Shown in pieces: positions 1 through 49,786 of a DNA stretch of 49,786 nt. The DNA lies in assembly GCA_964016885.1 (NCBI GenBank), contig CAXHJY010001479.1:1-49786 (forward strand), given 5' to 3'. The stretch comes from Eledone cirrhosa (lineage: Eukaryota). Below the pieces are notes generated by a model that saw only the letters and a list, made by a program, of their open reading frames with translations, did no database searches and was not told where the DNA came from. The translations under genes and the position numbers were made by a program. How positions within the stretch are numbered: position 1 is the first letter of the stretch; every line of letters begins with the position of its first letter.

Positions 1-619
1 CTTTCACCTATGCTACGAGCTGTCTCACCTATGTATGTTGTTGTCGTGTTTCTGCAAGTACCCTCTGTACATCTTATGCTATAGACTACGTTTCTAGTTT
101 TACAGTTTATCCGGGGGTTCACCTTACATATGATACATTTCCTATTGGTACAGTGGGTTTTCTTAAAAGGGTAGGTTTTGCTGATCAGGGATTTTATGGT
201 GGTTCCTGGCTTTTCTACCACCTTTATTTTTAATGGATGCTTTCCATCGTGCTACGTTCTAAATCAAACTTGTTAGTGCTCTCTAGTGGGGGTGTTCTTA
301 TAACTATATTGATATCGTCTACATAACGAGAGTACATGATGAGGTCTATGGAGCTTTCATTAAGGAGATCTTTAAGTCTCCTTTCCCACCATACCATGAA
401 AAGGTTGGCAACATCGCCAGCTATGCTGACGCCGATGGCTGCTCCCTCATTTTGGGTGTAGATTTTCTCATTGAACTTAAATATGTGGCCCTTTAGGGTA
501 GTTTTGATACTAGCCCCTATTGCATGTGCGACCATTTTTCTTACCTGATCAGTGTTTTGGGGGGTCCGTATAGCTTTGGTCCACCCAATCCACCTTCCTA
601 TGGGAGTCTTTTTAGCCAT

Positions 620-2278
620 CTGTACCCATCCATTAACATTGATTTTGCTGTGAAAAGATGTGTGGAGATGATCATTGAGAGTGAGGTGGAGTTCTGCGAC
701 GTCGACACAGACGAACTGGGCCTCCTACTTAGACTTACCTACGACACTGACTACCTAGACAGCCATGACCTTAGATGTTTCTGCCCTAGTAGACCTATAA
801 GAGGTAGACCCCCCACCATAACCTCAATGGCTAAAAAGACTCCCATAGGAAGGTGGATTGGGTGGACCAAAGCTATACGGACCCCCCAAAACACTGATCA
901 GGTAAGAAAAATGGTCGCACATGCAATAGGGGCTAGTATCAAAACTACCCTAAAGGGCCACATATTTAAGTTCAATGAGAAAATCTACACCCAAAATGAG
1001 GGAGCAGCCATCGGCGTCAGCATAGCTGGCGATGTTGCCAACCTTTTCATGGTATGGTGGGAAAGGAGACTTAAAGATCTCCTTAATGAAAGCTCCATAG
1101 ACCTCATCATGTACTCTCGTTATGTAGACGATATCAATATAGTTATAAGAACACCCCCACTAGAGAGCACTAACAAGTTTGATTTAGAACGTAGCACGAT
1201 GGAAAGCATCCAGCAGATAGCTAATTCCATACACCAGAGTATAACTGTAACTATAGACTTCCCTTCCAAACACCCTAACAATAGACTACCTGTATTAGAC
1301 ACAGAACTCTGGATTAACACTATAGACGAGAGAGCCCAAATTCTCCACTCACACTATGCTAAACCCATGGCCTCCAAATACCTGATACTCAAAAACTCAG
1401 CAATGTCCAGTAGTGCTAAGTTTAATATTCTGATCGCAGATTTGGTACGAGTGATGAAGAATGTGTCCCGCATGTGCGACCCAACAGAAATGGAAGGACA
1501 CATCCAACACTTCATCAACCGCATGCAGTTCTCTGGCTACAACCAAAGAGACAGAGTCAGAGTATACGAAGGAGCCATGGAAAAGTATAAGACCCTCATA
1601 GAACTGGACATGAAAGGAATTTGCCCACTATACAGGAGCAAATCATGGAATAGCTTAGATAGGGCTAGACATAAGATAGGGAAGGCCACATCATGGTACG
1701 ACAACCAGAGATATCAGAGTGTCATGTTTGTGGACGCCACCCCTGGAGGGAAATTAGCTAACCAGTGTAGAAAGGCCCTGAGAAAGACCCACTTAAAAAT
1801 AAAGGTGGTAGAAAAGCCAGGAACCACCATAAAATCCCTGATCAGCAAAACCTACCCTTTTAAGAAAACCCACTGTACCAATAGGAAATGTATCATATGT
1901 AAGGTGAACCCCCGGATAAACTGTAAAACTAGAAACGTAGTCTATAGCATAAGATGTACAGAGGGTACTTGCAGAAACACGACAACAACATACATAGGTG
2001 AGACAGCTCGTAGCATAGGTGAAAGGATAGACCAACACTGGGGGGAACTAAAAGGACGAAAAAACGGGTCAGTACTATACGAACATGCTAGACAACATCA
2101 TGACGGTAACATAGACAACATAGAAATTAGAATAATATCTAAACATAGGAATGACCCAGCAGATAGGCAAATCAGAGAGGCCAGTGAAATAGAAATTAGA
2201 AGACCAAAGCTAAACAGAAAGAATGAGTGGAACAACAACAACACCCAAACAAACAACACTGACCTAAGAGAAGTATAA
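620..2278 (+). CDS. Penelope-like element ORF (RT + Cys-rich linker + GIY-YIG endonuclease), 5'-truncated; Neptune-like
   Basis: Translation shows RT motifs LYPSI (from 620), QNEGAAIGVSIAGDVANLFM and RYVDD (YVDD at 1121-1132). A CxxxxCxxC...C linker follows, then the GIY-YIG signature VVYSIRC...YIGETARSIGERIDQH and a stop at 2278. Bases 524-619 of the predicted ORF are antisense filler from an inversion, not native N-terminus. Clade label is from recalled motifs. Confidence 0.93.
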   Translation: MYPSINIDFAVKRCVEMIIESEVEFCDVDTDELGLLLRLTYDTDYLDSHDLRCFCPSRPIRGRPPTITSMAKKTPIGRWIGWTKAIRTPQNTDQVRKMVAHAIGASIKTTLKGHIFKFNEKIYTQNEGAAIGVSIAGDVANLFMVWWERRLKDLLNESSIDLIMYSRYVDDINIVIRTPPLESTNKFDLERSTMESIQQIANSIHQSITVTIDFPSKHPNNRLPVLDTELWINTIDERAQILHSHYAKPMASKYLILKNSAMSSSAKFNILIADLVRVMKNVSRMCDPTEMEGHIQHFINRMQFSGYNQRDRVRVYEGAMEKYKTLIELDMKGICPLYRSKSWNSLDRARHKIGKATSWYDNQRYQSVMFVDATPGGKLANQCRKALRKTHLKIKVVEKPGTTIKSLISKTYPFKKTHCTNRKCIICKVNPRINCKTRNVVYSIRCTEGTCRNTTTTYIGETARSIGERIDQHWGELKGRKNGSVLYEHARQHHDGNIDNIEIRIISKHRNDPADRQIREASEIEIRRPKLNRKNEWNNNNTQTNNTDLREV

Positions 2279-16375: not shown

Positions 16376-18253
16376 CAGTGGCGTAACTAAGGATTTTGCG
16401 CCCGGGGCAAGCTCTAACCCCCCCCCCCCCCCCCCCGTAATTTAAATGACACGAAAAAGCATGAATATATAATCTAAAATTACTTTTATAAAATTAATAT
16501 GGAAAAAAGAGTAAAAAAATATTTACAAATGGATCTTTCTAGCTTTAGCTGATGCAAATTGATCGATTATTTCATCAAAATTGGTTGCGTTTGTTTCTTC
16601 GCTTTCTATGCATTGATGGCAAGATCGCGCAGACGGCTTTGAGACATTGATGTCCACAAATATGATAAGATGAGGTTGAGCTTGCTGAAGGATCTCTCAC
16701 AGCTTACGACGGAAACGACCATTGTTAGCAGTATCTGTAGACCAATGCGCAAATTCGGAAATATACTGTTGTCTCTGTATTGAACAATAAAATCCAGGAG
16801 GTGTTCTGGTCTTGAGACTGAAACATTAGTGCAGGTTGATAACAACGCCCGACAGTCAACGATTTCTTCAAAAAGCTCCTTGCCGTCAATGTCAGCATTG
16901 TAGTGATCAGCTAATGAAGAGCATTTTGATCGAAGCGTGAGGTCGTCTGGAAAAGGTGGACAGCACAGAGAGCGGACATCGAGGAGGAAGCCAAACCTCG
17001 CGTCAATATCGTTGAGACGGGCGAATCGTAGCTGCATTTCTGATTGAATTCGAAGGAGAACGGTTTGCATGACTGTTTTTACTTCACTGGCTGGTGATAG
17101 TATTCATCTTCAGAATTATCTGAAAGCTGCCGTCTTGGCCTTCCGCGACGTGTGCTGATATCAATGTTCCAGCGTTGACTTAACTCAATGCCTGTATTAA
17201 GTGATTACTGGGCAATAGTACTTCCATTATCCGCGAAATACTGCTGGAGGGCTTTGATGTCATCAGCAGCATCCCGGAAGTTCATTGTTGGTTCTTGAAA
17301 GCGTTTCTGAACCCGATCGATTCGAGCCAGAATCCTATTCCAAAATCCAAGCAACACGAAGAAGTGGAAGACAAGCAATTGGCTTAAAAGATGTTCTGCA
17401 TCACTTCGTGTGTCGGACCTCTCCTCATTATCCTCTACCAATTTTAGCACAAGCTCGAGGATTTCATTCAGAAAGTTTGCAAGATGCCTTACAGCATCTG
17501 CTCTTGCGCTCCACCTGGTGTCCGATGGAGATTTCAGAACGAAAGGGATTGCTTGCTTTAACTTTTCCCAACGCCGTGTTGATCGCGAAAAGAACGCAAA
17601 CAAGGACTTGATGACGTTGAAAAATGACATAACTTTGAAGCTACTCTTCGCTGCGGTCAAACCAACGAGGTTAAGTGAATGGTTGTCAGAGTTAACAAAT
17701 ATCGCCTTTTCGTTCAAATTCGTTATGCGTTGTTGAACCCCAATGGTGTGTCCGGCCATAACCGCAGCGTTGTCGTAACATTGTGCCTTGCAATCACTCA
17801 GCGCAAGGCCATCATCTTTCAATTCTTTAAAAATAAGTTCTACAATACTGGCTGCATCTTTCTCTTCCAGTAGAGTGAGCTCCAGAAAGGACTCTCGGAT
17901 GCGAATGGTCCTTTTGTCGAAATCAACATCGACATACCTCACCACTCGTGACAGCTGGTCTCGATGAGCTTGATCAGGAGATGAGTCCACCATCGGCGCA
18001 TTTTTTACGCGTCGAAGAACATTCTTCTTGACGTTGAGAGCAAGTAGATAAAGAAATTCTTTAGAAAAGCTAAGTTATAGAGCACAAACACTTGATGGGC
18101 TAATGTATTGAGCAACGGAAAGCATTTTTTGTTCATGCACAGTAAAAAAGAAAATAATTTAAGTCAACAATCTTGGTCAATTTTGCGCCCCATCAAGACG
18201 GCGCCTGGGGGCACGTGCCCCCTTGCCACCCCCTCACCCCCGTTACGCCACTG
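16376..18253 (-). mobile_element. Internally deleted hAT DNA transposon
   Basis: Perfect 12-bp TIR CAGTGGCGTAAC (16376-16387)/GTTACGCCACTG (18242-18253). TSD CATAGGAC on the left (16368-16375) and CAT[GAT]AGGAC on the right. GC-rich subterminal GCGCCC/GGGGCA motifs. Confidence 0.92.
16530..18060 (-). pseudogene. hAT transposase (ZMYM1/Tip100-like), N-terminally deleted and interrupted
   Basis: ORF 17205-17993 has DSSPD..H..QLS, YDNAAVMAG, NHSLNL and DTRW. ORF 16606-17070 has the hAT C-terminal dimerisation motif FPNL..LQILLT..VS..SCERSFSKL..I..YL...MSQ.RL..LA. Stops and frameshifts separate them. Confidence 0.9.
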
Positions 18254-33117: not shown

Positions 33118-33200
33118 GTTGGCCAATGGTTAATGTGGTTAATGCACTCAATCGGCATCCCAGAGATGCAGTGTTCGATTCCATACAGGTAACAATGTGT
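33118..33200 (+). mobile_element. tRNA-like SINE head
   Basis: TGGCCAATGGTTAA (A box) ... GTGTTCGATTCC (B box). It does not form a complete cloverleaf. Confidence 0.5.
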
Positions 33201-33314
33201 ACTTTCTCTGTCTCCTAGTGTTATTTTCACAAATTCTCTTTACTAGTATTTATAATAAAGAGAATTTGTGAAAATAACACTAGGAGACGGAGAAAGTACT
33301 AGTATTTATAATAA
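33199..33314. repeat. 44-bp inverted repeat with duplicated loop
   Basis: Arms at 33199-33242/33256-33299 with one T-G mismatch. TACTAGTATTTATAATAA occurs at 33241-33258 and 33297-33314. Confidence 0.9.
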
Positions 33315-35817: not shown

Positions 35818-37448
35818 TTGCTAAAAATAGATCTAGCTTAACTTCGGATGACATTAACATTATTACACATGCTAGACTAACACTTATTGAATTTCAGAAT
35901 GAATACTGGACCAGAAACACATACAGTAATCTTTTTGATATTACTATGGGTTCAAGCGATTCCGCCCAAATTACTGATCTTGTGGGCCTCTTTCTCCTTT
36001 TCAACATAAATGCCTCTTTTCCCCACCTCAAAGGTGGTTTATATCGTGATGACTGTCTTCTTCTTTCTAACAACCTTAGCCTTTCAGAAATCGAAAAAAA
36101 CAAAAAACATATTAGAACTTTCCTTAAAGACTATTATAATCTTAATATTACTTTTGAAAAAACAAGTAAAGTAGTAAATTTCCTAGATATAACTTTAGAT
36201 TTAGCTACGGGTATCTACCAACCTTACCATAAACCTAACCAAAACTTACATTACATACACTCACAATCTAATCACCCTAAATCTATCCTTAAAAACCTTG
36301 CATATAATATATCACTTAGAATTTCTAACCTTTCTTCTAACCAAGATGTATTTGATAAAAATGCGACCTTTTATAATGAAGCTCTAGATAGAAGTGGCCA
36401 CAAAAATAGATTAGAGTATATACCTTCTACTAAAAATACTGAAAGCATACAGCATAATATTACCAACAAACACCAAATGAAAAGTACACACCTAAATGCC
36501 ACCCACAATATACCCCAAAATACTAAATCTTCTAATATAAAGTATAGTAACCCTCAAAAAACTACTCATCATACAACTATAATAAATATTAATAATAAAA
36601 CTCCTAATAAAAAAGATAAAACACCTAAATCTACAAATATAACTAAAAATAGTTGTGGTGAGATCATTAACATTAATCCTCCTAGTAAAAATCACGATAC
36701 AACCTATAAAAATAATAAAAATAATAAACAACATAGAAACCGTAATAGACGAGTTACTTGGTATAATGCTCCTTTTAATTTACAAGTTAAGGATAATATT
36801 GCTAAAAATTTTTTTTATATCTTTGAGAAAAACTTCCCGCCAAACCACAAATACCATCAAATCTTAAATAGGTCTACAGTTAAATTCTCATACTCTACAA
36901 CAAATAACATAAAACAAAATATAAGTGCATATAATGCATATAAATGTAAGAAAACCATAAGTATACCACCAGTACATCAAATTAACCATAATATCTCCTC
37001 AAATACAGAATTAACGAAAGGATGTAACTGTAGAAACAAAGCAAACTGCCCATTAAAAGGGAATTGTCTTGTTAACAACATAGTCTATAAATGTAATGTT
37101 AAAACTAAAGATTCTATTTGCTCATATATAGGAGCTACCTCTAACAATTTTAAGACAAGGTTTAATACCCACAAGCATAGTTTTAAAAATGCCGCACTGG
37201 CTAATACAACATCTCTAGCAGAAAAAATCAATAGTTATAAAAATAAGAATATAAAATATGATTTGACCTGGAGTGTGCTCAAAAGAGCCACCCCTTATCA
37301 AAATAATAGAAAGGAATGTAGATTATGTTCCCAAGAACTATTTGAAATAATGAAGTCTAAGGATATCTTATTAAATAAACGACAGGAATTAATTATATCG
37401 TGTAATCATAAACTAAAAAAAACATTTAAATATTATAAACCTAATTAA
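35818..37448 (+). CDS. Penelope-like element ORF (RT + GIY-YIG), 5'-truncated; Nematis-like
   Basis: [24 protein letters not shown] (36042-36053), [29 protein letters not shown]...CPLKGNC linker, IVYKC...YIGAT...FKTRFNTH, and CRLCSQE...LNKR. The predicted N-terminus at 35571-35817 is microsatellite. Clade label is from recalled motifs. Confidence 0.93.
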
Positions 37449-41228: not shown

Positions 41229-42346
41229 ATACAGCAAATGGGGCCCTCTCGAGGGAGACACCTATAATAAGTGGGGTGCCCCAGGGGACAGACCTGGGAC
41301 CACTACTGTTTTTGGTGGCTCTCTCGGACATGCCCTCTGTGGTGCATGCAACAACATCCCTCACTAGCTATGCTGATGACACTAAGGTAGCACAGGCAAT
41401 CAAAAACCCGGCTGACGCTGCCCTTTTACAGCAGGATCTGGATGCCATATACAGATGGGCGGAAGAAAACAACATGCAGTTTAATGCTGGCAAATTCCAA
41501 GCCCTACAATACAAACCTGCAAACACAAATATAGTGGAACACAGCTACACAGGACCAGGAGGGACCGATATCCCCGTGTCAAAATCGATACGAGACCTGG
41601 GCATAGACATGAGCGATGATGCATCTTTTTCTTCACACATCATGAAAGTGGCGACAACATGCAGACGACTCGCTGGCTGGATCTTGAGGACTTTCCGGAC
41701 AAGAGATCGAGACACCATGTTGACACTGTGGAGGACTTTTGTCCAAAGCCGCCTGGACTACTGCTCCCAGTTGTGGTCACCCCATAGTGTCAAACTAACC
41801 ACGGAGCTTGAGGCAATCAAGCGAAGCTACACCAAGAGGATTGCCAAGATGAGGGATACAAGCTACTGGGAGAGGCTAAAGGAAATGAACCTCTACTCCT
41901 TGGAGCGAAGACGGGAGTGATACGCAGTGATCTACATGTGGAAAATCCTGGAGGGACTAGCGCCAAACTTTGGCATTGGGAGCTGGACCAACCGTCGAAC
42001 AGGACGTCACTGTGTGGTGCCAAAGGTCCCGTCTTCCACATCTATTATAAGGAGCAGGTATTGCAATAGCCTGGGATTCAAGGGCCCTCAACTCTTCAAT
42101 AGGCTGCCGAGGCATCTAAGAGACTTGCATGACGTGGAGGTGGATGTCTTTAAGAAACATCTCGACAGCTTATTATCCAGGATCCCGGATGAGCCCACAG
42201 CAAGACACGAGGGAAACCTAAGGGCAGCAGCAACAAACTCCCTCCTTCACCAGTGGCCAACCTATACAGGCTGGAGATAAAATGTGTAGCAACAAGGGCG
42301 GTGCCCCAGCATGGCCTCAGCCGGATGGCTGAAACAGGTAAAAGAG
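41229..42346 (+). mobile_element. CR1/L2-group LINE, 5'-truncated (RT C-terminal half + 3' UTR), one premature stop
   Basis: SGVPQGT.LGPLLF, YADDTK, RDLGI, SRLDYCSQLWSP and YWERLK.MNLYSLERRRE*YAVIYMWKILEGL. The TGA at 41918-41920 is in frame with the downstream ORF to 42280. A 3' stem-loop TCAGCC-ggat-GGCTGA precedes a TA tract. Confidence 0.92.
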
Positions 42347-44606
<2,260 letters not shown>

Positions 44607-44698
44607 ACGAAGGAAATGTGGTAAGGAACCAGGTGGACCATAACTCACCAAAGTACTCAATACTTGAGGTAGTAGAGTGGGTAATAGGAACCAGTAAG

Positions 44699-44792
44699 AC
44701 CCCGACAGCTGAGCTCAAGCCGTTTCGACGGCTAATTCTGGACTAAATGAACATTTTTCCTGGTATTTAAATAGTCGATCTTCTCAAGGGGT
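44699..44792 (-). ncRNA. Type-I hammerhead ribozyme, U3-A8 core variant (left arm)
   Basis: Minus strand reads ACCCC-TTGAGAA-GATCGACTA...TAGCCGTC-GAAA-CGGCT-tgagctc-AGCTG-TC-GGGGT. Confidence 0.78.
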
Positions 44793-45732
44793 AATTCCAT
44801 ATATGGTCAAAGTGATTGTCAAAAATCAGTAGTAATTCTGTGGTTGCAAATTAGTAGGGGAGATGGTGGCTAAACCTGCCAGTAGGAGAAAGAGGGGAGG
44901 GGGTGGAGTAGACCCAATCAAGCTTTGGTAGTGCCAGCTACAGCTGGGCATGAGGTCAAGGAAGATTCAGGGGAGGGGGAGGGGGAGGAAGTCGGAACGG
45001 TAGGTCGAACAATGGGGGGTAAAAATAGGAAAGAAAAAATACTGAGAGTGAAGAAAAGCAAATAAGTGTAAAGAAAAAAGTAAAGTCAATTAAATTCTAC
45101 GACCTAGGTGTCAGGCTATTGTTAGGCGAGAATAAAATAAAGAAAGAAAGAAAGAAGTAAAGAAATAAATAAGTAAATAAATAAATAAGGAAATAAGTAA
45201 AAGAACTAGGTGGGACATAATAGGCAAGGACCCTTTTAAGAAGTATAAGTACGTAAATGATACGGTGACGGGTCAACAAAAGGGGCCAAAATACTAAAGA
45301 GACTACCACGAAATAAACAATAAAGGTTTCCATCCCGGGCCAGCAACGACCCAGTGCAGCAAAGTGAACTTGTACGAGATAATAATTCTGAGTCCCGAGA
45401 AAAATATATACTAATGCTAACTCTAAAAGATCTAAAACAAGCTACATGAAAGTTCGTACGAAATAAAGGTAGAATACGGAGAAATAAATTCAGAATCCAC
45501 CCCGCCCAGAAGAAAAGCATTGTTCTACCTACCGTTCCGACTTCCTCCCCCTCCCCTGTATCTTCCTTGACCTCATGCCCAGCTGTAGCTGGCACTACCA
45601 ACGCTTGATTGGGTCTACTCCACCCCTCCCCTCTTTCTCCTACTGGCAGGTTTAGCCACCATCCCCCCTACTAATTTGCAACCACAGAATTACTACTGAT
45701 TTTTGACAATCACTTTGACCATATATGGAATT

Positions 45733-45826
45733 ACCCCTTGAGAAGATCGGCTATTTAAATACCAGGATAAATTTTCATTTAGTCCAGAATTAGCCGTCGA
45801 AACGGCTTGAGTTCAGCTGTCGGGGT
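45733..45826 (+). ncRNA. Type-I hammerhead ribozyme, U3-A8 core variant (right arm)
   Basis: ACCCC (45733-37)-TTGAGAA (45738-44)-GA(T)CGGCTA...TAGCCGTC-GAAA (45799-802)-CGGCT/AGCTG stem III-GUC site (45819-21)-GGGGT (45822-26). Confidence 0.82.
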
Positions 45827-45928
45827 CTTACTGGTTCCTATTTATTTATATATATATATATATATATTTATTTATATATATATATATATATATTTATTTA
45901 TATATATATATATATATATTTATATATT

Positions 45929-46033: not shown

Positions 46034-46695
46034 TTCAGGCTGTTCAGTTTGTTTACAAACGAACAAAGCTGCGTTATAATAAGCGTCCGCTAAACTGATA
46101 TGTGCATATATGTATGTCTACCTGTATGTATATATGTGTATACATATATATATATATATATATATATGCATGCTACTGTACGTCTGTATACATATATGTA
46201 TGTACGTATACACACATACTTACATTTAAGTAAGTGCCGTACTAAGAGTGAGAAATGAAATTTCGTTTTCATTTTATTTCAACTTAGCGTTTTCGGTATG
46301 CCCGACCGACTTACCTCACTCGATATGCAAATTAGGCTGCTCAGCCGTTAATTTTCATAAGGAAAGTATATACTTTCGAACGTTCAACTATCTGGCAGAT
46401 GGGTATACGGTGCTGATGATAGCTAACAAGCTTGAAACTAGTACATCGTTCCTGTGTCAGTGTTGAACAAAAAGGTGACGTGGTGCCTTAACACCGTACG
46501 GCAAAAAAAAAAAATTCAGGCTGTTCAGTTTGTTTACAAACGAACAAAGCGGCGTTATAATAAGCGTCCGCTAAACTTATATGTGCATATATGTATGTGT
46601 ACCTGTATGTATATATGTGTATATATATATATATATATATGCATGCTACTGTACGTCTGTATACATATATGTATGTACGTATACACACATACTTA
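46034..46695 (+). mobile_element. Retrozyme-like element: ~481-bp unit with partial tandem terminal repeat
   Basis: 46034-46222 is repeated at 46515-46695. Internal HHR. A12 tract at 46503-46514. No ORF. Embedded in TA tracts. Confidence 0.85.
46407..46449 (+). ncRNA. Minimal type-I hammerhead ribozyme
   Basis: ACGGTG-CTGATGA-T-AGCT-aaca-AGCT-T-GAAA-CTAG-TA-CATCGT. Stem I is 6 bp with one G-U, stem III is palindromic, and the GUA site is at 46441-46443. Confidence 0.88.
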
Positions 46696-47815
<1,120 letters not shown>

Positions 47816-48487
47816 AAATATAAATTAACGAGAATCGTTTTCAGCTCAGGAATTAACGAAAATCAACGTCCGATATGTGTGGCAAGCGCTCGATGAATCA
47901 TATGAATCGGAGCTACAACATACGTTAAGGGCGAAACACACTGACATGATGGTTAACTGACATGATGGTTAAAACATATCATCCGCACAGCCAAAACAAA
48001 ACGACCAAATAATTCGGGTCAAACAATAAAAATATATGTGTTGATAATTTCCCGGACCCTGGACTGATGGTAAAATCCAGTATTGGTTTCTGCGACTCCA
48101 AATCAGGTACTGTCCGCCTACATAAAGCATGTTGGGCTTCTGGTGAGATGATGAACAAGGCAGTCGTGTTATCAACGGGTTTTGCTCCAAGATGCTATAG
48201 ATAGTGTGGCTATTACTGAGCCCTCGTGGGATTCAGCAAGGGAGGTAACACCTCTATTAAGCGAATGATTCAGTTGTGTATTATTGCGAGAATGCAAAAT
48301 ATCACAAATCGAATAAAGCTCTCGACAGAATGGTTAAATATAACATAGCTATTCAACAGTCAATATAAGTAACTGAAAAAATCAATAAAATTAACTGCTC
48401 AATAGCTAGACTCTGGAGATTAATACAAATATAAATTAGCGAGAATCGTTTTCAGCTCAGGAGTTAACGAAAATCAACGTCCGATAT
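47816..48487 (-). mobile_element. Retrozyme-like element: 611-bp unit with 61-bp direct terminal repeat
   Basis: 47816-47876 is repeated at 48427-48487 with 2 mismatches. Internal minus-strand HHR. No credible ORF. TA tracts flank both sides. Confidence 0.78.
48051..48179 (-). ncRNA. Type-I hammerhead ribozyme, U3-A8 core variant with extended stems II and III
   Basis: Minus strand reads CCCG-TTGATAA-ca-CGACT...AGTCG-ca-GAAA-CC-aata-CTGGA-loop-TCCAG-GG-TC-CGGG. The GUC site is at 48057-48055. Confidence 0.7.

Positions 48488-49786
<1,299 letters not shown>

What the first reader, a model, noticed from the sequence alone, without database searches (positions are those of the whole stretch)
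47816..48487. Second, unrelated U3-A8 hammerhead inside a 611-bp partial-tandem unit
Seen on the minus strand: core UUGAUAA, a 78-nt stem II region opened by C-A/A-C mismatches, an extended stem III (CC/GG plus CTGGA/TCCAG), a GUC site and a 4-bp stem I (CCCG/CGGG). The unit has a 61-bp terminal direct repeat, as expected from copying a circular or multimeric template slightly more than once. Two independent families with the rarer core within 4 kb suggest this variant is common in this genome (inference).
Basis: partly seen in the sequence, partly recalled or inferred. Interest (0 to 1): 0.72.

Follow-up and report, generated by a model that had tools for sequence, protein, structure and literature searches.

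The report
Retrozyme insertions stop at cut site
This is one of hundreds of young copies of a 594-base protein-free repeat with a predicted self-cutting RNA whose core variant is already known; the copies share one fixed end in TA repeats and often stop right at the predicted cut site, which likely means the RNA cuts itself in germ cells and is then pasted back by a Penelope-type enzyme.

Summary
The motif is real: a type I hammerhead with a U3-A8 core at 48051-48179 (minus strand). The family unit is 594 bp; 611 comes from a private 17-bp duplication. The subfamily is young (337 exact 3'-end motifs) within a 580-630-bp superfamily (1,729 exact hammerhead-pattern matches, 0 controls).

Ends are not circularly permuted. 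The 3' end is fixed against (TA)n and the 5' end varies, so the 61-bp repeat is just where copying stopped, at a TA microhomology.

In two subfamilies about 66-70% identical, 31 of 158 5' ends fall 0-20 nt after the predicted cut, against 4 and 2 in the flanking windows. This likely records in vivo cleavage.

U3-A8 is in print for Penelope-like elements and dominates here (20,872 minimal-hammerhead matches; 99 of the first 100 are U3-A8). It sits on RT/GIY-YIG Neptune-type elements, the likely helper class; no sequence link to a helper was found.

Verdict: new member of the animal non-LTR retrozymes. The scan already noted similar 591/595-bp retrozymes in this genome and cut-site pile-ups in other genomes.

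The parts
47816..48487 (-). Whole insertion: one full unit (48426-47816) preceded by 61 bp of a second pass (48487-48427); non-coding (longest stop-free stretch 87 codons, unit read as a circle), 38.6% GC
47816..47820 (-). Fixed 3' end of the family (inferred start of reverse transcription), AT-rich and abutting (TA)n; 222 nt after the predicted cut in the 594-nt unit
   Evidence: 78 of 79 insertions end at unit position 590-594; 73 of 79 have a TA-rich 3' flank
47957..47973 (-). Private 17-bp tandem duplication, absent from 29 of 29 other copies
48051..48179 (-). Type I hammerhead, U3-A8 core; predicted cut between 48055 and 48054
48091..48168 (-). 78-nt stem II region: family-wide 1x1 mismatch (C.A, A.A or G.A), then pair 10.1-11.1 (G-C in most relatives, A.C here), a covarying helix and an inner covarying hairpin
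48057..48086 (-). Extended stem III: CC and GG with a hairpin between them (CUGGA/UCCAG here, CUAGA/UCUAG in the second subfamily)
48347..48407 (-). Stable hairpin just downstream of the fixed start in a circular or tandem RNA, conserved across the superfamily; candidate protein-binding signal (inferred)
   Evidence: z -4.54, 0 of 200 shuffles; 1,216 motif matches, 0 control
48427..48487 (-). 61-bp redundant 5' piece ending at an ATAT microhomology with the target
46606..47815 (.). (TA)n-type microsatellite, left part of the target
48488..49786 (.). (TA)n-type microsatellite, right part of the target

Best explanation
This is one copy of a young 594-bp non-coding repeat with a fixed 3' end in (TA)n and variable 5' ends, most likely a retrozyme copied into DNA by a Penelope-type reverse transcriptase, and its U3-A8 hammerhead likely cleaves part of the RNA in germ cells. 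Shown: copy number, dispersal, fixed 3' end, 5' truncation, copies longer than one unit, conserved and covarying hammerhead, pile-up of 5' ends at the predicted cut. Inferred steps: (1) Units are transcribed. (2) A Penelope-type GIY-YIG endonuclease nicks (TA)n and the RT starts at one fixed internal site 222 nt 3' of the cut (about 0.85); the helper is probably a Neptune-type element (about 0.55). (3) The RT usually reads across an intact junction, in a ligated circle or an uncleaved multimer; these two cannot be separated here. (4) When the template's 5' end was made by self-cleavage, the cDNA runs off there, is trimmed by 0-20 nt and is joined to the target (about 0.75). (5) Other cDNAs stop early, often at TA microhomologies, as the window copy did 61 nt into its second pass. 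The ribozyme is probably slow and partly dispensable.
For: Dispersed and young: 337 exact 3'-motif matches; 0.64% mean divergence among the 30 best copies. Polarity: fixed 3' end in 30 of 30 hammerhead-selected loci and 78 of 79 motif-selected insertions. Hammerhead under constraint with an anchor outside it (26 of 30 loci, 4 interrupted ones dropped): core columns 0.98 conserved against 0.81 for the whole unit and 0.79 for the stem II insert, while position 7 takes all four bases. Stem II pairs 93 of 126 cells, shuffle mean 83.9, 0 of 5000 shuffles reach it; slid registers give 33-79. Cut-site pile-up: family A 15 of 79 and family B 16 of 79 ends in [0,+20]; together 31 against 4 upstream and 2 downstream, edge test p 1.7e-6. 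Nineteen ends lie in [0,+9], against 18 in the 128 nt inside the ribozyme; family B has no TA microhomology in the window. The family A stops occur in at least 4 SNP sublineages with different junctions. Helper class present: a 938-codon RT plus C-terminal GIY-YIG frame with a CxxxxCxxC linker, flanked by two U3-A8 minimal hammerheads and ending at (TA)n about 144 nt after the cut. Internal RT initiation and AT-rich targeting are shown in vitro for a Penelope-like element (PMC11167929).
Against: No cleavage assay and no RNA data. No nucleotide homology between the unit and the ends of 50 GIY-YIG loci; the two strong hits are, where inspected (L307), a separate insertion in (TA)n, so the helper is unidentified. 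Small amplified lineages carry a broken or wobble 3-8 pair: C3.A8 in 6 of the first 100 CCUG-stem matches and 3 of 26 loci; U3.G8 in 17 CCCG-stem matches, most from one lineage. The studied subfamily has lost G10.1-C11.1 and still spread. The hammerhead is not the MFE, and a competing helix covers the cut site in 20 of 21 sequences. The [0,+20] window was chosen after seeing family B; the window set from family A (-2 to +7) gives only 4 of 55 in B (p 0.004). Only 8 of 158 ends lie at 0 to +3, so RT stalling at the 3' edge of the fold is not excluded. The p-values treat insertions as independent, and shuffles ignore relatedness. In PAc, hammerhead mutants did not affect insertion in vitro and no RNA-seq reads ended at the cut (PMC11167929).
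Confidence: 0.8

Rival explanations
1. The element is Penelope-mobilised, but the hammerhead no longer cuts. It persists as a folded protein-binding or stalling structure, and the 5' ends pile up because the RT pauses at the 3' edge of the fold or because a few source loci happen to begin there.
For: 23 of the 31 ends lie at +4 to +20 rather than on the cut. Amplified C3.A8 and U3.G8 lineages exist. Stem II has a double mismatch in this subfamily. Cleavage was dispensable in vitro for PAc (PMC11167929).
Against: Stem I is only 4 bp, and stronger hairpins show no comparable pile-up (non-overlapping windows). Three ends are exactly at the cut and five more at +1 to +3. Junctions differ within one sublineage, which a single source locus would not give. 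Catalytic positions are near invariant while position 7 varies.
Confidence: 0.12
2. One reading: a viroid-like circle is reverse-transcribed from random points, so that copies are circularly permuted with short terminal repeats.
For: Many copies exceed one unit. Lineage SNPs agree between the two passes of one insertion in 71 of 72 cases in family B. The unit folds moderately well (z -1.97).
Against: The 3' end is fixed in 30 of 30 hammerhead-selected loci and is homologous across subfamilies, with (TA)n 215-253 nt after the cut in most. The redundancy ranges 54-552 bp at the 5' side only. SNP agreement also fits homogeneous tandem sources.
Confidence: 0.04
3. It is satellite DNA or a DNA-level mobile repeat spreading by recombination between (TA)n tracts, with a hammerhead inherited passively from an old Penelope end.
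For: One sister subfamily forms a tandem array of about 20 kb at G000:C1:150.10-150.12 Mb.
Against: Most copies are dispersed, one to two units long, with strict polarity and 5' truncation. Ends track the ribozyme cut site, which DNA-level spread does not predict.
Confidence: 0.04

Closest known systems
Animal non-LTR retrozymes (Cervera and de la Pena 2020, PMC7229834, passages read; Li, Clavereau and Pollet 2026, bioRxiv 10.64898/2026.07.22.740005, parts 1-3 of 5 read)
   Same: Non-coding, low-GC repeat unit with one type I hammerhead, no LTR, found as monomers, partial tandems and arrays in a genome rich in Penelope-like elements. A mismatch at the base of helix II is known from axolotl HHR_Amex2, which cleaves weakly (22% in 1 h).
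   Different: Unit 594 nt against about 170-400 nt in the 2020 paper, though within the 51-972 bp range of the 2026 preprint. U3-A8 core, 78-nt stem II and long helix III. Fixed 3' end, (TA)n target and cut-site 5' ends are measured here; I saw no such insertion-end analysis in the parts read. Circular RNA is not shown here.
U3-A8 minimal hammerheads of Penelope-like elements (Cercyon of Schistosoma mansoni, about 1,300 hits; PMC4209133, parts 1-2 of 4 read) and natural U3-A8 hammerheads (PMC3088659, section 8 read)
   Same: Same core covariation, short stem I, extra nucleotide after A9, G10.1-C11.1 in most relatives.
   Different: Here helix III is a stable hairpin set between CC and GG, where the genome's Neptune-type minimal hammerheads have the bare CCGG palindrome, so it could act as a monomer (inferred). 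It has no coding frame.
EN+ Penelope-like elements, Neptune type (PMC8557442, passages read) and PAc of Anolis (PMC11167929, parts 1-3 of 4 read)
   Same: Partial tandems, 5' truncation, microsatellite target, fixed internal start of copying, hammerhead 140-250 nt before the 3' end.
   Different: No ORF. One start site only, without the second 'tail' site; no inverted 5' arm of the same subfamily in 158 insertions, though one sister locus, L088, has one. No sequence match to a helper.

Membership tests
Type I hammerhead ribozyme | Core YUGANRA ... GAAA ... UH with a paired 3-8 position and three stems in type I order | tested here: met
   U3-A8 in 22 of 26 loci picked outside the ribozyme
Type I hammerhead ribozyme | Stems supported by covariation | tested here: met
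   stem II 93 of 126 cells, 0 of 5000 shuffles, related sequences not corrected for; stem III G-C to A-U swap; stem I shows only a C-G to U.G change
Type I hammerhead ribozyme | G10.1-C11.1 pair directly closing the core | tested here: not met
   a 1x1 mismatch precedes it in 21 of 21, and this subfamily has A.C; U.U at this place is known in active natural hammerheads (PMC3088659, PMC7229834), C.A/A.C was not seen in the passages read
Type I hammerhead ribozyme | Self-cleavage | not testable with these tools
   indirect only: 31 of 158 5' ends within 20 nt after the cut
Animal non-LTR retrozyme | Non-coding repeat unit with one type I hammerhead, GC under 50%, no LTR | tested here: met
   (38.6% GC, longest stop-free stretch 87 codons)
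Animal non-LTR retrozyme | Multicopy, with tandem units each holding a complete hammerhead | tested here: met
   multi-unit loci L104, L006, L002 and array L172; the window copy itself holds one hammerhead
Animal non-LTR retrozyme | Expressed as monomeric linear and circular RNA | not testable with these tools
   no RNA run was available
Non-autonomous Penelope-like element | Fixed 3' end, 5' truncation, partial tandems, microsatellite target | tested here: met
Non-autonomous Penelope-like element | 3' end similar in sequence to an autonomous partner | tested here: inconclusive
   no homology to the ends of 50 GIY-YIG loci out of 10,596 candidates; shared U3-A8 core and GAAACC..GG frame only
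Non-autonomous Penelope-like element | Inverted 5' arms and a 30-40 bp tail from a second start site | tested here: not met
   0 of 158 insertions with an own inverted arm; 3' ends 590-594; selection by the 3' motif would miss insertions using only another start
Plant LTR retrozyme | LTRs with a type III hammerhead, 4-bp target duplication | tested here: not met
   type I fold; the repeat is variable in length

The most novel reading that the evidence does not exclude
The insertions record a nicked-circle template. This would be direct genomic evidence that hammerhead-processed RNA is the transposition template. Family B shows the pile-up but not a clear asymmetry (13 of 64 against 3 of 8). 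Crossings are indel-free in the 52 of 57 parsed, which argues against a sloppy template jump.
Probability: 0.2. Interest if true: 0.68.

Novelty: new member of a known kind. Interest (0 to 1): 0.44.

Why it matters
Whether the hammerheads of Penelope-like elements and animal retrozymes cut in vivo, and whether cut RNA is ever the template for insertion, is open. The one reconstituted system found cleavage dispensable and saw no RNA ends at the site (PMC11167929). Here two diverged subfamilies leave 5' ends at the predicted cut, which likely shows that a U3-A8 core with a mismatched stem II base works in the germ line. The family gives a simple non-coding substrate with one start site, and natural core-broken lineages as internal controls. 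The core variant and the element class are known.

Tried and rejected
Rfam: no hammerhead family among the 150 of 170 rows shown for the window or the 3 rows for the element at E 10; uninformative for a fold with long insertions.

RNA evidence: no RNA holder listed. Three runs of unrecorded kind from one sample were laid as contigs and say nothing on expression.

Circular permutation of ends: rejected. Plus-strand ribozyme: no core on the plus strand by inspection, and fold z -0.06.

Canonical C3-G8 relatives: 0 among the 3 C3 matches with the CCCG stem and 0 of the first 100 of 1,093 CCUG-stem matches.

Helper search: profile of the unit against 30 and then 50 GIY-YIG loci; a short-stem version of the family hammerhead gave 3 unrelated hits; 30 of 30 loci picked by the 5' hairpin were superfamily units, none with a different downstream element. 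Naiad elements were not tested, as no Naiad sequence was in hand.

Two-start or inverted-arm model from earlier notes: not seen in 158 insertions.

Known errors: L220 was scored as one pass but has two; the L287 'end' is an internal joint that falls at the cut site; L234 and L235 look like one duplicated locus. None of these lies in the [0,+20] count.

RNAalifold on the MAFFT alignment did not recover the hammerhead. Lunse et al. 2016 was not held. No supplements were read; those of PMC4209133 and PMC7229834 may show similar long-stem variants.

Full report
Observation. The minus strand at 48179-48051 reads as a type I hammerhead with a U3-A8 core, a 78-nt stem II region opened by C.A and A.C, an extended stem III, a GUC site and a 4-bp stem I. 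The predicted cut lies between 48055 and 48054. The element fills 47816-48487 inside a long (TA)n tract. Positions 47816-47876 and 48427-48487 match at 59 of 61 bases. A relaxed descriptor finds it once in the window and never in 30 shuffles. Thermodynamics do not single the fold out: z 0.19, 1.5 kcal/mol above the MFE alone and 5.6 in the unit. Rfam does not see it.

The family. A DNA search of the own genome gave 4,081 first-look candidates, of which 40 were scored. In the 30 best loci the unit is 590-597 bp in 29; the window's 611 bp comes from a private 17-bp duplication. Mean divergence from the majority is 0.64%. A 28-base 3' motif has 337 exact matches. Hammerhead patterns give 616 U3-A8 matches with the CCCG stem, 3 C3.A8, 17 U3.G8 and 1,093 with a CCUG stem, of whose first 100 I count 92 U3-A8, 6 C3.A8, 2 U3.G8 and 0 C3-G8. 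All reversed controls were 0. These relatives are homologous non-coding units of about 580-630 bp, down to about 66-70% identity.

Is the ribozyme under constraint? Loci picked by a hairpin 170 nt away from the ribozyme avoid circularity (30 loci of 1,216 matches, 26 kept after dropping 4 interrupted ones). Core columns are 0.98 conserved against 0.81 for the unit, and position 7 takes G, U, A or C between near-invariant neighbours. In 21 chosen relatives stem II pairs in 93 of 126 cells, above all 5,000 column shuffles and above slid registers of 33-79 (relatedness not corrected). The first mismatch is family-wide (0 of 21 paired); the second is G-C in 18 of 21, so the studied subfamily has lost the G10.1-C11.1 pair. 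Against strict need: small amplified lineages have C3.A8 or U3.G8, and a competing helix can cover the cut site.

Insertion anatomy. In 30 loci picked by the hammerhead alone the 3' end is always at unit position 592-594 (29 distinct insertions). For 79 insertions from the first 100 of the 337 motif matches, 78 end at 590-594 and 73 have a TA-rich 3' flank. The 5' ends vary, copied lengths run from 38 to 1,889 nt, and 26 exceed one unit. This is the polarity of target-primed reverse transcription from one fixed site. It excludes random circular permutation. The window's 61-bp repeat ends at an ATAT microhomology used in 6 of the 79 as a first-pass stop.

5' ends mark the cut. These fall in at least four SNP sublineages with different junctions. 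As an independent replicate I took 79 insertions from the first 100 of 387 matches of a diverged subfamily. With the window fixed from family A it gives 4 of 55 (p 0.004) and 0 of 5 on the second pass. Its ends spread to +20, and in that wider window, chosen afterwards, the two families give 31 of 158 against 4 upstream and 2 downstream. TA microhomology does not explain this in family B, and 19 ends lie in the first 10 nt against 18 in the 128 nt inside the ribozyme. The simplest reading is run-off at a 5' end made by self-cleavage, then short trimming (inference). Stalling at the edge of the fold is not excluded, since only 8 ends lie at 0 to +3. Crossings of the junction are clean: 49 exact, 3 with one substitution, 5 unparsed of 57. 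The two passes of one insertion agree at 71 of 72 lineage SNPs, which fits a circle or a homogeneous tandem.

Helper. The genome has 10,596 GIY-YIG candidates (150 scored, 50 loci examined). Many are RT plus C-terminal GIY-YIG elements with a CxxxxCxxC linker, matching the Neptune description in PMC8557442. Their 3' regions carry U3-A8 minimal hammerheads about 140-200 nt before a (TA)n end. A minimal-hammerhead pattern has 20,872 matches against 57 controls, 99 of the first 100 being U3-A8. The retrozyme's GAAA-CC-hairpin-GG-UC looks like their GAAA-CCGG-UA with a hairpin set into the palindrome, and one Neptune-type family also has a 1x1 mismatch at the stem II base. This is a resemblance only: no nucleotide homology to their ends was found.

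Comparison with print. U3-A8 is reported in about 1,300 Penelope-type hammerheads of Schistosoma mansoni (PMC4209133) and as an active natural covariation (PMC3088659). Animal non-LTR retrozymes and their link to Penelope-like elements are described in PMC7229834 (passages) and bioRxiv 10.64898/2026.07.22.740005, where 1 of 9 tested dimers cleaved. Internal RT initiation, AT-rich targets and dispensable cleavage come from PMC11167929. Seven searches listed no paper reporting retrozyme 5' ends piling at the cut, judged from listings and the parts read; the library lacks most subscription papers. Earlier notes of this scan report similar retrozymes in this genome and cut-site pile-ups elsewhere; these are unchecked AI notes.

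Verdict. A real hammerhead in a new member of the animal non-LTR retrozymes, most likely moved by Penelope-type machinery (0.8). The core variant is ordinary for this genome. The replicated cut-site pile-up is the part of value. Interest 0.44.

Noticed in passing
window 45500-45835 (+) and 44607-44990 (-): Inverted pair of another non-coding element with a U3-A8 type I hammerhead (core at about 45738); the two arms end at different 3' points about 80 nt apart, a Penelope-type two-start layout.
   Followed up: partly
window 46034-46700 (+): About 480-bp partial tandem with a canonical C3-G8 minimal hammerhead at about 46410-46450; the same motif occurs as four copies about 480-510 bp apart in L298.
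   Followed up: partly
window 497-2278 (+), 2545-2595: 5'-truncated Penelope-like element with RT and C-terminal GIY-YIG motifs, followed by a canonical minimal hammerhead; an inverted piece lies at 230-724 (-).
   Followed up: partly
window 35820-37448 (+): Second, different Penelope-like RT and GIY-YIG frame by motif inspection; no Pfam hit.
   Followed up: no
window 41246-42340 (+) and 16606-18074 (-): 3' part of a LINE-type RT (Pfam RVT_1, E 6e-10) and a broken frame with DUF4371 that resembles a hAT-type transposase (label recalled).
   Followed up: no
L287 (G000:C2:272900000-272902800): Internal joint that fuses the base just before the hammerhead cut to a point about 186 nt downstream, with a short microhomology; may record a template jump to the 3' end of a cleaved RNA.
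   Followed up: partly
L172 (G000:C1:150.10-150.12 Mb): Tandem array of about 20 kb formed by a sister subfamily, a possible source of multimeric transcripts.
   Followed up: partly
G000:C1:1-24.3 Mb (listing): The most abundant Neptune-type U3-A8 hammerhead often occurs as back-to-back pairs; 14 of 19 pairs that I picked from the listing are 22-127 bp apart, so many insertions turn round just upstream of the ribozyme.
   Followed up: partly
L125 (G000:C1:240164800-240168600): A family A insertion sits directly 3' of a 73%-identical sister element in the same orientation; these elements land in the (TA)n next to each other and next to Penelope ends (also L010, L023, L307).
   Followed up: no
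window 33199-33299: Near-perfect 100-bp inverted repeat, MITE-like, scored by Rfam miRNA models below their thresholds.
   Followed up: no
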